From positions 19,716,001 through 19,780,000 of the forward strand of contig OX597818.1 in NCBI GenBank assembly GCA_951406725.2: 64,000 nucleotides of DNA, read 5' to 3'. The notes under the pieces were generated by a model. It ran no database searches. It saw only the letters and a program-made list of their open reading frames with translations, and was not told the DNA's origin. This document shows positions 7,660 through 36,461 of the stretch, in pieces. The position numbers and the translations under genes are program-made. Every line of letters begins with the position of its first letter. Positions within the stretch are counted from its first letter, which is position 1. The stretch comes from Octopus vulgaris (Eukaryota).

Positions 7660-8615
7660 ACATTTAGAGGATGATAGGGGTTCGTTTCCCTGCTTGCAAT
7701 ATATCGGGTGCAGATTGCATCGATAAACAGCTGGACGAGGCTCCTCCTGCGGTTAAAAAACGGTAGGAACGTCGGTTCCTACGGAACAGCCATATTGAAG
7801 TGGCGGTAAACATTACTTCTCAGTATAGTTACTACTTACATCTCTTTAAGAGATTTTCGAAGTAGCTACTTCGCTTGTTGCAAGATCAGTGACTGACTGG
7901 TACTTATTTTTCTATATATTACGAGCTGGAGAGGATTACTGCTATGGAGGACAAGAATGGAAGGTTCTGTGACAGGGTCCTTTGTCTCTGGCCCTGGTTT
8001 GCTATCCTACTTCAGATACCATCTGAAGAGCAAGAGGGGTTGGAGAGGAAGACCCTGCAGTTGAGCGAATATGAGCAACGATGTAAGGATGTGATGAGAA
8101 AGGTGGGTGTTAGTAACCCAGCTTAATCATCGAGGAAAGGAAAAGCGAGTTGCTGGGCTTTATAGGCTGCCGGGTTCATTTTTTTCTTTTTCATATTCTT
8201 TATTTCGTCTATTTATGGTTTTTGTTTTGAAAAAAAAGTTCTAGTGAAAAGTTTTAAAATTAATTATTTTTATTAAATTATATATAAGTGAATTTTTATT
8301 ATAATCATTCGAATTCATCCAACATTTTGTATTTGTCTGTCTTGTAATGTCCCCATTCTGTTTCGATCCTATGTGATCATAATAAAGAATTCATCTCTAG
8401 CTGACGGGTGTCCACCACTGAGGATGCGCACAAATTAGCTCGGAACCGTACTGTCGTCTGCTAGCATTTCATAGGGGTTCGCTCCCCTGCTAGCAATATA
8501 TATCGGGTGCAGATTGCATCGATAACAGCTGGAAGAGGCTCCGCCTGAGGCTAAAAGTGGTAGTAATGTCAATTTTTACGGAACAGCTACATTAAAGTGG
8601 CGATAAACATATACC
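7660..8615 (+). mobile_element. Decayed retrozyme-like partial tandem with about 460 bp internal insertion
   Basis: Diverged direct repeats about 7674-7812 and 8471-8610; broken hammerhead CTGAGGA...GGAACCGTAC at 8418-8451; homologous to 33990-34230. Confidence 0.7.
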
Positions 8616-8774
8616 TTGCTACTTTGCTTAATGACATTTAAAATTTTTCTGAAAATGAAACAACTGCTTCTTTCAAATATAAGCGAAATATGTTTATAAA
8701 TTTCTATAAATCTTATATACCGCAGCTGAAGTTCCCTAAACCTCATTTGTTACTGGTTTATTTATATATTTTTT

Positions 8775-9140
8775 CGTGGTTCTGCGATAAAAAGCTTGCT
8801 CTTCAACCACATGGTTCCGGGTTCAGTCCCACTGCGTGGCACCTTGGACAAGTGTCTCCTACTATAGCCGCGGGTCAACCAAAGTCTCATAGTGGATTTG
8901 GTAGGCGGAAACTGAAAGAAGCCCCTCGTATATGTGTGCGTATTTGTCCCCTACTACCGCTTGACAACCGATGTTGATGTGTTTACGTCTCCGTAACTTA
9001 GCAGTTTGGCATAAGAAACCGATAAAGTACCAAGCTTAACAAAACAAAAGTACTGGGATCGATTCATTTCCATAAACATTCTTCTAGGCAGTGGTCCAGT
9101 ATGGTCGCAGTTTAATGACTGAAACAAGTAAAAGATAAAA
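8775..9140 (+). mobile_element. SINE family A
   Basis: CCACATGGTTCCGGGTTCAGTCCCACTGCGTGGCACCTTG through GACTGAAACAAGTAAAAG tail. Confidence 0.8.
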
Positions 9141-9649
9141 GATTCTAAATTTCTCATGTTCAAAATAGAAATCTGGAGACCGTTTAAAAAAAGTGGGTGT
9201 AATAAAAAAAAATACGTTTAATACATTTGGGTGTGGTTTGATGAAGAGTTGGTGCCATTTCTATCAGATCGAATGGCGGGATTCTGGTTTAAGCACCCCG
9301 TGTAACTTCTTTTATTTTGGGGAAATTTTCAGAAAATTCTTGCGAATTTGTGTTCTACACACTAGGATTCATACACTTATGCGGAAAAAAATTGTGATTT
9401 AAGCTGTTATCGTTAACACATCTCACGACCACCTGATACCTTCCCCGTTTCTTTTCACTCTGACATGGATTGACGTTTTTCAATGTTTTTCTCCCCATAA
9501 AGACAGTTAATGGAATGGTGATGTACCCAAGAGTGAGATTTAAGCAAAAAGTTCGTACTGTCCCTATTTTAAACTCGGATTTAAGAAAAAAGAATCGAAA
9601 AAGAGTGAATCTTTTAGGATTTATTGGGTCGGGGGTCCCAATAAATCCT

Positions 9650-9815
9650 AATGCTTAGCGGTCCGTCTTCACGTTCTTAGTTCAAATTCCACCGAGGTCG
9701 ACTTTGCCTTTCATCCTTTCGGGATCGATAAAAAAAAGTACCAGCTGAGTACTGAGGTCGATGTAATCGACTTAGCTCCTCCAACGAAATTTCTGGCCTT
9801 CTTACGCTAGTAGAT
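9650..9815 (+). mobile_element. SINE family B (Meta-domain-like core), partial
   Basis: GAGGTCGACTTTGCCTTTCATCCTTTCGGGATCGATAAA..GTACCAG core shared with more than 10 copies. Confidence 0.75.
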
Positions 9816-10319
9816 GCTAAACACCAAATGTATAAAGAATATCTGGGAAAGAATGTGGGCGCTTTTCTATGCATTCTAACACAGTTACCATAAAAGATAA
9901 CTAAATCAATACATCAGAATCGTTGATCAAAAAGTTCAGTATCTTGTCTGTTGTTTAGCCCCTTATTTTTCTGGGGCCTTTTTTTTTTTAACCAAGGGAT
10001 AGTATCTGGGACCATTTTTAATTTGAGTCTTTTTCTTTTTTTTTTTAGATAAAATGTGAGCGAGTGATACCTACTAGTCGAGCGACCTTTCCTGAGCAGC
10101 AGCAGCACTCCTAAAAAAATTTCAAAGTAATTTTTCGCTAAGCATGCCATTCAGAATGTCCCACAAGATTGCAGTTTGTCCACGACTAATATAAACTTAC
10201 TGTTTCAACCACTGTTATACCAGATTATTATCACAACTACATATTTTAAAGAGTCGAACGCTTCCTTTCTGTGTCCTTATATTTGTGAAGGAGAGGCAAG
10301 CACCCCTACCATCCAAGAT

Positions 10320-34125: not shown

Positions 34126-34174
34126 TCACCAGACCGTACGGTTTCGGGCTATTTGTGCCCATCGTCAGTGGTAG
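34126..34174 (-). ncRNA. Type I hammerhead ribozyme
   Basis: Minus: UACCA CUGACGA u GGGC-ACAAAUA-GCCC GAAA CCGUACGG UC^UGGUG; predicted cleavage between 34132 and 34131. Confidence 0.85.
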
Positions 34175-34953
34175 ACACACGTTCGTTAGAGATAGCTCCA
34201 GCTCGCAATATATAGAAAGCTAATCTCTAATAGAGATTTGCTAACTCGCTGCATTGCTTGTTATACACGTGTGTGTGTGTGTGTGTGTGTGTGTGTGTGT
34301 GTGTGTGTGTGTGTGTGTGTGTGTGTGTGTGTGTATGTGTGTGTGTGTGTGTGTGTGTGTGTGTGTGTGTGTGTGTGTGAGTGTGTGTGTGTGTTAACAA
34401 GTGACTTAAAATATTTAATTCTTCAACAATTATCTGATACAGGTTTCAGTCATTGGACTGCAGCCATTTTGGGGCACCGCTTTGTAAGAATTGGTCGAAC
34501 AAATCGACCCCAATTGGTCTTCCACAAGCAATCCTACCCAGACTTGTATCGGGAAGGAAAACTTTCTGAGTGCAATGTCATGGCTATTCGTGATCGAAGA
34601 GTGTCTCCTCCTACATATAGGCGTGGCTGTTTAGTAAGAAGTCTACTACCCAACCACATGCTTCCAAATCCAGTCTCACTGTGTGACACCTTTGCGCAAA
34701 TGTCTTCTGTCGTAGCTTCGGGTCGACGAATGCCTTGCGGTGAATATGACAGACGGAAACTGAAAGAAGGCTGTCATGTGTTGTGTCTGTGTGTCCTACT
34801 ACTTGACAACCGGTGTTGGTGTGTTTATATCCCGGTAACCTAGCGGTTTGGCAAAGCAGCCGATAGAATAAGCACCAGGCTTTAAAAAAAAATTAAATTG
34901 ATTTACTCGATTAAACAGGTGATCAACGACTTTTTGATTAATTTGTTTATTAA

Positions 34954-35129
34954 CCCATTACCCGGCAGAAACGAATATATGCGTTTTGACCTAAATCGTT
35001 TTTTTCTGTCACTGGCGAGTTAACTCGTCAAAAGATAGACTCGCCAAAATCGACAATTAAAAAATAAAACAATTAAAAAATATGTCTGAAAAAATACATT
35101 TATTTTCAAAATAATTGCTGGGTAAGGGG
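34954..35129. mobile_element. piggyBac-like MITE
   Basis: TTAA|CCCATTACCCGGCA...TGCTGGGTAAGGGG|TTAA; empty site visible in the inverted copy near 36680. Confidence 0.8.
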
Positions 35130-35953
35130 TTAATCAACAGTTCGTAGCTTACTTGTTTACTTGATTGCCTGGTAAGTTGGCAGTAATGTAACGTGTTATG
35201 CAATCTAATTGTATTCTGCTCAAAAAACTCCTAATGAACCAATTGTAGCAAAACCAGATAACTAATTCGTCTGTTTTTATTGCATATGTATGTATGTATG
35301 TATGTATGTATGTATGTATGTATGTATGTATGTGTGTGTGTATGGATGTATGTAGGTAAGACAAAGACAGATGTGTTCCGTTTTAATAAACAAAATGGAC
35401 AACATACTACTTACTGGTCTATGATTGGTCTATATATATATATATATATATATGTCCAACCCATGCTAGCATGGAAAACGGACGCTAAACGATGATGATG
35501 ATGATGATGATATATATATATAATGTGTGTGTGTGTGATGGATTGTCTTGTGATAGACAAATGATAGTGGCGTATAGCTACATCCAATATAATAATGGTA
35601 GATACAGTAACAGCGATATATGTGATCTCTGGATGTGCGGCGTTTTCGTTTCAGCGTTTTGTCACTCGTGTTACTGGGCCAATCATAGACTAGTATGTAG
35701 TATGTTGACCATTTTGTTTATTAAAACGGAACACATCTGTCTTTGTCTTACCTACATACATACATACATATATACACACACACATTATATATATATATAT
35801 AGACCAATCATAGACCAGTAAGAAGTATGTTGTCCATTTTGTTTATTAAAACAGAACACATCTGTCTTTGTCTTAGCTACATACATACATACACACACAC
35901 ACACACACACATTATATATATATATATATATATATATATATATATATATATAT

Positions 35954-36461
35954 AACAATAATAAATCTCTGAGCGAGGTATAAACAGTAACTGCTCTGTA
36001 ATATAAGCGGGATCAGCCATCTGAATGTGGCTAGGGACAGGGCGGGGTGGTGGGGGTGTTACTGATGCATTTAGCCCCAGGCGACTATAGACGTCACCAG
36101 AAGAGCCGACACCATCACGGTGTCCTTGCTAGCCTGCAAAGGGAGATCAGCCTCCCCGAAGATACGGATGCTACACACGGACCGGTTTCGAGGTAGTCGC
36201 CTCTCGTCAGCGCATGGCAAGCACCGTTCTTCATTGAGGGACTTCCTCTACAGGCTAGATATATATAGATTTTCACAGTAAACACAGTCACTGGCGTAGA
36301 AAATCTGTTCGAAAACAATAATAAATCTCTGAGCGAGGTATAAACAGTAACTGCTCTGTAATATAAGCGGGATCAGCCATCTGAATGTGGCTAGGGACAG
36401 GGCGGGGTGGTGGGGGTGTTACTGATGCATTTAGCCCCAGGCGACTATAGACGTCACCAGA
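35954..36461 (-). mobile_element. Non-LTR retrozyme-like element, 1.4 copies of a 360-nt monomer
   Basis: 148-bp identical direct repeats 35954-36101 and 36314-36461; central hammerhead; no ORF; microsatellite flanks. Confidence 0.85.
36164..36227 (-). ncRNA. Type I hammerhead ribozyme
   Basis: Minus: CAUGCG CUGACGA GAGG-CGACUA-CCUC GAAA CCGG UC^CGUGUG; helix I extends (UGCU/AGCA, ACGG/CCGU); predicted cleavage between 36180 and 36179. Confidence 0.9.

What the first reader, a model, noticed from the sequence alone, without database searches (positions are those of the whole stretch)
7746..36081. Second conserved module shared by diverged hammerhead families, with a covarying hairpin
Seen, in ribozyme-sense orientation, a CCTG(G/A)GGCTAAA-like box: 7746-7757, 8544-8555, 22576-22587, minus 10574-10583, minus 36070-36081, and a weaker one near 34020. 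About 30-40 nt later comes a hairpin GCCA-N8-TGGC: 7789-7804, 8586-8601, 22618-22633, minus 36016-36031. At minus 10528-10545 it reads GTCA-N8-TGAC, a compensatory change. Inference: a conserved RNA signal apart from the ribozyme, perhaps for RT recognition, priming, ligation or transcription; function unknown.
Basis: partly seen in the sequence, partly recalled or inferred. Interest (0 to 1): 0.75.

Follow-up and report, generated by a model that had tools for sequence, protein, structure and literature searches.

The report
Folded copy-start domain of hammerhead retroposons
Four diverged families of short ribozyme-carrying jumping elements in this animal genome share a roughly 120-base segment whose long stem changed in matched pairs, and most copies end inside or just after it, so it is likely the folded RNA signal at which a Penelope-type reverse transcriptase binds and starts copying.

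Summary
The box and hairpin are real (6 matches against 0.04 expected). They sit in five insertions of four families of ~350-360-nt type I hammerhead repeats (non-LTR retrozymes). The families are homologous along the whole monomer, so this is not a module swapped between unrelated elements. The stronger signal, which it missed, is a 9-bp long-range stem (P1) enclosing P2: 5-6 of 9 pairs changed on both sides, reached by 0 of 1000 and 0 of 500 column shuffles. Public contigs show thousands of family-A pieces whose majority letters restore pairing in three stems. Four of six 3' ends in the window fall at two sites, 11-16 and 55-63 nt after P2; one insertion is an inverted copy with a tail plus a direct copy without, the Penelope-like pattern. 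Best reading: a Penelope-type reverse-transcriptase binding and internal-initiation domain (0.55), by analogy with the anole element PAc. Only four families were compared, no autonomous partner or RNA was seen, and the strand that folds is undetermined.

The parts
7664..7943 (+). Element A, upstream part: 5'-truncated monomer with P0, box, P1, P2, P3, P4 and TATA-like segment
   Evidence: contig joint 7943>8393
7733..7747 (+). P0 hairpin just before the box; its 3' arm supplies the CC of the box; the family majority at 7736 restores the pair
   Evidence: sequence; table 3
7746..7757 (+). Box, element A first repeat
7762..7770 (+). P1 5' arm (pairs with 7828-7836); the majority letter at 7767 restores the one mismatch
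7789..7804 (+).
7828..7836 (+). P1 3' arm
7840..7854 (+). P3 hairpin; second preferred 3' end lies just after it
7888..7904 (+). P4 hairpin; majority letters at 7900 and 7901 give a perfect 6-bp stem
   Evidence: table 3
7944..8392 (.). 449-nt insert, itself repetitive, that splits element A
   Evidence: (joint, depth)
8393..8617 (+). Element A, downstream part: hammerhead (core 8418-8446, with a core change), box 8544-8555, P2 8586-8601, 3' end about 16 nt after P2 (23 nt if read with a deletion)
10252..10585 (-). Element D: near-whole monomer lacking P0; box 10574-10583, P1 10563-10572 with 10496-10505, P2 10529-10544, hammerhead core 10341-10365
22493..22563 (-). Element C, inverted copy: P2, P1 3' arm (22516-22523), P3 and tail, ending in (TA)n
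22574..22648 (+). Element C, direct copy: box 22576-22587, P1 5' arm 22592-22599, P2 22618-22633, ending 11-15 nt after P2 in (CA)n
22718..22873 (.). Exact local duplicate of element C (225-nt period)
33978..34243 (-). Element A3 (family A): P3, hammerhead core 34141-34168, decayed box 34018-34029, broken off inside P2
35953..36461 (-). Element B: partial tandem of 360-nt period in microsatellites; P0 36440-36458, box 36430-36441, P1 36418-36424 with 36345-36351, P2 36376-36391, hammerhead core 36185-36210, second box 36070-36081, second P2 36016-36031, 3' end 63 nt after P2

Best explanation
The box and hairpin are part of a ~120-nt segment shared by four hammerhead-repeat families, whose 9-bp stem P1 covaries and which likely folds in the element's RNA as the site where a Penelope-type reverse transcriptase would bind and start copying internally. 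Shown: homology, covariation of P1, tandem monomers with type I hammerhead cores, and where the copies end. Inferred: tandem copies are transcribed, the hammerhead cuts monomers that may be circularised, and a Penelope-like protein supplied in trans recognises the box, P1 and the sequence-conserved P2 loop. It would nick AT-rich or microsatellite DNA and prime cDNA at one of two sites, in the unpaired stretch 11-16 nt after P2 (inside the P1 loop) or just after P3 (55-68 nt after P2). The stretch between the two sites would be the Penelope 'tail'.
For: P1 is the top helix in an all-against-all scan of sequence-only alignments: 9 bp with 6 two-sided changes, 0 of 1000 column shuffles. In a second alignment, with family D shifted, it has 9 bp and 5 changes, 0 of 500; without D 1 of 500, without C 4 of 500. 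Named structure: 93% of cells paired, 7 pairs with two-sided change, 0 of 500 shuffles, slid registers 23-51% paired. Of 13 shown majority changes in 7700-7905, the 4 that fall in predicted stems all improve pairing (7736, 7767, 7900, 7901); two of these letters were already visible in A2/A3. 3' ends: 4 of 6 in the window lie at the two sites. In contigs there is a loose end at 7818 (+14; 15 contigs of run X2, flank agreement 0.46), and 3 of 8 informative long pieces stop at 7865-7872. Element C has the inverted-copy-plus-tail form; B and C lie in (TA)n (pattern described in PMC8557442). In the anole element PAc, RT starts at two internal sites that delimit the tail, needs RNA 3' of the first site, and does not need hammerhead cleavage (PMC11167929).
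Against: Only four families, of unknown relatedness (B and C are close), so the shuffles ignore phylogeny; R-scape was not available. P1 is not the predicted fold in B (pair probability 0.22-0.25) or A1 (0.0), only in D (0.93). Cognate arms paired better than shuffles in only 3 of 6 tests, and several non-cognate arms paired as well or better. 2 of 6 ends do not fit: D ends before P0 and A3 breaks off inside P2; the end of A is ambiguous. 5 of 8 informative contig pieces stop elsewhere (7879-7931); only 32 of 7769 pieces and 24 of 1654 loose ends were shown, and a stop may be divergence rather than an end. The spacing of the two sites (40-46 nt in C) is longer than the published 30-40-nt tail. 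Sense and antisense fold about equally well as RNA or DNA. No autonomous element with this domain was found or could be searched for.
Confidence: 0.55

Rival explanations
1. The segment works in the nascent cDNA rather than the RNA: P2 and P1 fold in DNA and promote strand switching, second-strand priming or resolution of the insertion.
For: The inversion junction of element C lies exactly at P2, with 11 nt copied back across the hairpin. Antisense folds are as stable as sense. On the sense strand G.T and A.C oppositions in P1/P2 are about even (3 to 2, read).
Against: One event only. The single opposite-strand joint among 15 shown of 200 in contigs is at 7703/7756, not at P2. The hammerhead arms favour the sense strand in 3 of 3 elements.
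Confidence: 0.13
2. The box, and perhaps the P2 loop, is a DNA promoter element that drives transcription of the downstream monomer.
For: Penelope has an internal promoter in its pLTR (PMC2377424); schistosome and newt hammerhead repeats are transcribed by Pol III or Pol II from the monomer (PMC6765202). The box is conserved in sequence, and a SINE in L006/L017 and L008 carries the same 12 letters.
Against: No tRNA-like gene. A-box and B-box matches are not at homologous positions across families. A DNA promoter does not predict a covarying long-range stem. Similarity to the SINE stops at 13-15 nt.
Confidence: 0.12
3. The domain serves the circular RNA itself: host-protein binding, stability, ligation, or switching the hammerhead off in the circle.
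For: Metazoan retrozymes accumulate as circles, and their hammerheads must be blocked by an unknown means (PMC7229834). In B, 9 nt just before the box are complementary to hammerhead stem II, and the P1 3' arm can pair instead with P4.
Against: The 9-nt complement was not seen in family A and is near chance for 360 nt; the alternative P4 pairing is not kept in D; this reading does not explain the clustering of 3' ends.
Confidence: 0.1
4. Common descent only: the islands are what remains alignable between old relatives, and the stems are kept by fold-back or conversion events without a separate function.
For: The whole monomer is homologous; box and P2 are not more conserved than P3; small sample.
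Against: Identity is patchy (0.25 in the linker, 0.72-0.74 in P2 and P3). P1 arms changed sequence yet kept pairing, and family-majority letters restore stems that the decayed window copy breaks.
Confidence: 0.07
5. The segment is a second self-cleaving or ligating ribozyme.
For: The box resembles the joining strands of HDV-like and twister ribozymes (recalled, from no call).
Against: No Rfam ribozyme match at E up to 10 (these scans also missed the hammerheads). The position that would be the catalytic C is T in the family-A majority. By inspection there is no room for the HDV P2/P3/L3 elements.
Confidence: 0.03

Closest known systems
Non-LTR retrozymes of animals (Cervera and de la Pena 2020, PMC7229834; Li et al. 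2026 preprint 10.64898/2026.07.22.740005)
   Same: Non-coding monomers of ~350-360 nt with one type I hammerhead, in partial tandems; mussel monomers are 350-390 nt; proposed to be moved by Penelope-like elements.
   Different: The sections I read describe no conserved or covarying domain outside the hammerhead and call monomer sequences species-specific. Their supplements could not be read. Expression and cleavage are not shown here.
RT-initiation region of the Penelope-like element PAc, Poseidon clade (Frangieh et al. 2024, PMC11167929)
   Same: A structured region 3' of the hammerhead with two internal start sites that delimit the tail; AT-rich targets; hammerhead cleavage not needed.
   Different: PAc's region lies in the ORF, about 85-92 nt after the cleavage site, and is described as one AC-rich stem-loop. 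Here the sites lie roughly 175-225 nt after the cleavage site, in a non-coding multi-helix domain with covariation. Sequence or structural likeness to PAc could not be checked (figure and GenBank file unreadable).
Insertion structure of endonuclease-positive Penelope-like elements (Craig et al. 2021, PMC8557442)
   Same: Partial tandem, adjacent inverted 5'-truncated copy, tail at one end, (TA)n targets; Naiad and Hydra families are listed for Octopus with (TA)n preference.
   Different: No ORF. Box motifs had 0 hits in that paper's supplement text (Naiad, Chlamys and Hydra consensuses; long runs are cut and motifs across line breaks are missed), so the partner clade is unidentified.
Nin-domain and other mollusc SINEs (PMC4758252)
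   Same: The same 12-nt box occurs in SINE-like loci L006/L017 and L008; my naming of these as Nin-type is recalled.
   Different: No tRNA head, no alignment beyond the box (z at most 2.5), and a circularly permuted tandem monomer with a hammerhead.

Membership tests
Non-LTR retrozyme | Type I hammerhead in the monomer | tested here: met
   Cores at 8418, 10341, 34141, 36185 with stems I-III by pattern and fold; B and A3 have the standard core, A2 a core change, D extra bases. Rfam did not report them.
Non-LTR retrozyme | Short tandem monomer of about 170-400 nt | tested here: met
   B period 360 nt; family A about 348 nt from joints 7943>8393 and 7945>8472.
Non-LTR retrozyme | No protein-coding capacity | tested here: met
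   Of 51 stop-to-stop frames of at least 120 aa, those overlapping the elements are microsatellite read-throughs around C and beside A3; none lies in A, B or D.
Non-LTR retrozyme | Expressed as linear and circular RNA; self-cleaves | not testable with these tools
   Only contigs of DNA-type runs were available.
Penelope-like element derivative | Partial tandem (pseudo-LTR) structure | tested here: met
   Elements A and B.
Penelope-like element derivative | Inverted 5'-truncated copy with a tail at one end only | tested here: met
   Element C, 1 of 5 insertions.
Penelope-like element derivative | Tail of 30-40 bp | tested here: inconclusive
   40-46 nt in C; the boundaries merge into microsatellites.
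Penelope-like element derivative | Microsatellite or AT-rich target | tested here: inconclusive
   B and C lie in (TA)n/(CA)n; A and D do not.
Penelope-like element derivative | Autonomous RT/GIY-YIG partner sharing the terminal sequence | not testable with these tools
   No genome held; no hit in the one supplement searched.
tRNA-derived or Nin-domain SINE | tRNA head with A and B boxes at fixed positions | tested here: not met
tRNA-derived or Nin-domain SINE | Alignable central domain | tested here: not met
   No alignment beyond the box with the window SINE, L006 or L008; no published Nin consensus was aligned.
HDV-like, twister or pistol ribozyme | Match to the family model and catalytic residues | tested here: inconclusive
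   No match at E up to 10, but sensitivity is limited; the putative catalytic C is not conserved.
Telomerase-RNA-like core (works-like only) | Template inside a long-range closing helix beside a pseudoknot | tested here: inconclusive
   Site 1 lies inside P1. By inspection the P2 loop can pair with a downstream strand in A1, A2 and D but not in B or C; no statistic was run.

The most novel reading that the evidence does not exclude
Penelope-type reverse transcriptases, the closest relatives of telomerase, read a telomerase-RNA-like core: a long-range helix (P1) that closes an unpaired template start beside a hairpin or pseudoknot (P2) and fixes where copying begins. These retrozymes would be minimal circular RNAs made of just a hammerhead and that core, and would give a ~120-nt portable template signal.
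Probability: 0.15. Interest if true: 0.85.

Novelty: new variant of a known kind. Interest (0 to 1): 0.5.

Why it matters
How Penelope-like elements choose their RNA template and why their copies carry a tail is largely open, with one in vitro system among the papers I found. Mobilisation of animal retrozymes by these elements is so far argued from co-occurrence and sequence likeness. A compact domain with natural compensatory changes and two candidate start sites gives exact mutants for testing both questions, and a search model for finding the autonomous partner. The elements themselves are ordinary members of a known class. A covarying domain like this was not described in the papers found by 7 searches, which cover only an open-access library.

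Tried and rejected
Whole-genome search: no genome is held. Pattern scans for homologues: viral contigs gave 3, 0 and 0 loci, metagenomes 15 loci, prokaryote genomes 0. None of the 18 loci is a homologue by inspection or by covariance model (best non-window hit 15.4 bits, E 0.57, against 31-110 bits for the training copies). Sequencing runs: no RNA holder listed, which is no evidence on expression. Contig depth along family A (peak 45209 at 7794-7829 in X1) tracks how far the window copy differs from the majority, so I did not use it as a measure of conservation or of ends. Rfam: whole window, only microsatellite-driven miRNA-type hits among the 150 shown of 181; no relevant hit in the two focused scans. 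RNAalifold found only P2, because half the rows are truncated. Nin-SINE origin, Pol III promoter and second ribozyme were considered and are not supported. The cognate-versus-foreign arm test was mixed, and its A3 window was anchored 5 nt late. The strand test was inconclusive. Earlier scan notes: nothing by place or sequence.
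Full report
Observation. The cited boxes and hairpins are present and far above chance for patterns fitted to them. Corrections: one hairpin has a G.U pair, one range is off by a base, several copies were missed, and the family-A majority box has T instead of C. The organism is not given; the microsatellite-rich sequence and its SINEs look octopus-like to me (recalled, from no call).

What the elements are. Self-comparison and reading of the flanks give five insertions of four families: A (7664-8617, split by a 449-nt insert), A3, B, C and D. 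Hammerhead cores lie in A, A3, B and D, each in a long extended stem I. B is a partial tandem of 360-nt period. Contigs of four public runs laid at 80% likeness (1509-2069 pieces per run) join 7943 to 8393 in 4 of 4 runs, and 7945 to 8472 with 91 letters between in 3 of 4, which makes family A a tandem monomer of about 348 nt with many copies. These are non-LTR retrozymes as defined in PMC7229834 (passages and sections 14 and 17 read; supplement unreadable). A 2026 preprint argues that such elements derive from Penelope-like pseudo-LTRs (parts 1-3 of 5 read; supplements closed).

The module is part of a larger homologous domain. A1, B, C and D align collinearly from the box to the hammerhead arm (A1-B z=7.7, A1-C 6.0-8.2, B-D 4.2, A1-D 2.8; alignments). 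Mean identity among four families is 0.59 (box), 0.46 and 0.61 (P1 arms), 0.25 (linker), 0.72 (P2), 0.40 (unpaired stretch) and 0.74 (P3). So box and P2 are conserved islands, but not the only ones.

Covariation. P2 has one two-sided change (family D) and one wobble among 4 pairs. A scan of all possible helices in the sequence-only alignment ranks P1 first: 9 bp, 32 of 36 cells paired, 6 pairs changed on both sides; 0 of 1000 column shuffles reach this, and their maximum is 5 such pairs. A second alignment shifts D by its internal repeat and still gives 9 bp with 5 changes, 0 of 500; three-family subsets give 1 and 4 of 500. For this test the two pieces of C were treated as one row, and the truncated A2 and A3 were left out. 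The pair-count tool gives 7 two-sided pairs, 0 of 500 shuffles, with slid registers at 23-51% paired against 93% (both B repeats are rows there). Among the 40 of 332 variant rows shown for contigs, 13 lie in 7700-7905; the 4 in predicted stems all improve pairing. Against: four related families are few and the nulls ignore phylogeny; P1 has low predicted probability in B and A1; cognate arms beat shuffles in 3 of 6 tests only.

Where copies end. Relative to the end of P2: C direct +11 to +15, A +16 (or +23), C inverted +55 to +57, B +63; D ends before P0 and A3 breaks off inside P2. In contigs, a loose end at +14 has 15 contigs with mixed AT-rich flanks, and 3 of 8 informative long pieces stop at +61, +65 and +68, the other five at +75 to +127 (tables heavily cut and biased to long pieces). 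C consists of an inverted copy with the tail and a direct copy without, in (TA)n, the arrangement described for endonuclease-positive Penelope-like elements (PMC8557442 passages). Its inversion junction lies at P2.

Mechanism. In PAc, reverse transcription starts at two internal sites in a stem-loop 3' of the hammerhead, the stretch between them is the tail, RNA beyond the first site is needed, and hammerhead cleavage is not (PMC11167929, parts 1-2 of 4 read; supplement 2 gave no text and supplement 3 only run lists). The domain here has the same position and the same two-ended signature, and its first site lies inside the P1 loop. I therefore infer that it is the binding and initiation signal for a Penelope-type protein acting in trans (0.55). 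Transcription, cleavage, circles, the partner and the binding are all inferred. Rivals: a cDNA-level fold (0.13), a promoter (0.12; PMC2377424 and PMC6765202 passages), a role in the circular RNA (0.10), descent without function (0.07), a second ribozyme (0.03).

Reach and novelty. No homologue was found in viral, metagenome or prokaryote collections, which hold little animal DNA, so distribution beyond this lineage is untested. The box alone recurs in SINE-like loci but nothing else aligns (PMC4758252 passages). No Rfam family matches. Hammerheads in pseudo-LTRs are known (PMC4209133 passages). Seven literature searches showed no description of a covarying non-ribozyme domain in retrozymes; unread supplements of the two retrozyme papers could bear on this. 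Verdict: known class of element, probably undescribed structured domain, function inferred. New variant of a known kind, interest 0.5.

Noticed in passing
window 7944-8392: The insert that splits element A is itself a high-copy repeat (contig depth up to 41943 at 8082-8117 in X1) and holds a hammerhead-like first half-core near 8023; family not identified.
   Followed up: no
window 7888-7920 (+), 36270-36293 (-), 10423-10457 (-): A conserved CAGTGA hairpin followed about 30 nt later by a TATA-like run precedes the hammerhead arm in A, B and D. It could be an snRNA-type promoter (idea recalled from newt satellite 2), but the TATA-like run also pairs in extended stem I in A and D.
   Followed up: partly
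window 36439-36447 and 36194-36202 (-): In B, 9 nt just before the box are perfectly complementary to hammerhead stem II/loop; not seen in family A, near chance.
   Followed up: partly
window 36461, 22574, 10585, 10252: The 5' ends of B, C (direct) and D, and the far end of D, all fall at hairpin P0; possibly an RT stop or a transcript boundary.
   Followed up: no
window 18190-18717 (-): Uninterrupted frame for a small heat-shock protein (Pfam HSP20, E 2e-20).
   Followed up: partly
window 850-3173 (-): Broken LINE-type element; RT fragment at 2190-3173 (Pfam RVT_1, E 1.2e-7).
   Followed up: partly
window 54459-55532; also 58349-58700, 33016-33358, 24272-24535, 11462-11968, 12172-12410: Long fold-back sequences; the first is a 1.07-kb palindrome at 97% identity.
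   Followed up: no
window 22444-22935: Element C and its microsatellite flanks are duplicated exactly (225-nt period); recent slippage or an assembly artefact.
   Followed up: no
L006:601-657 and L017: A tRNA-type SINE carrying the same 12-nt box sits between two identical hammerhead cores 784 nt apart in a metagenome contig, probably insect host DNA (recalled); no module match by covariance model.
   Followed up: partly
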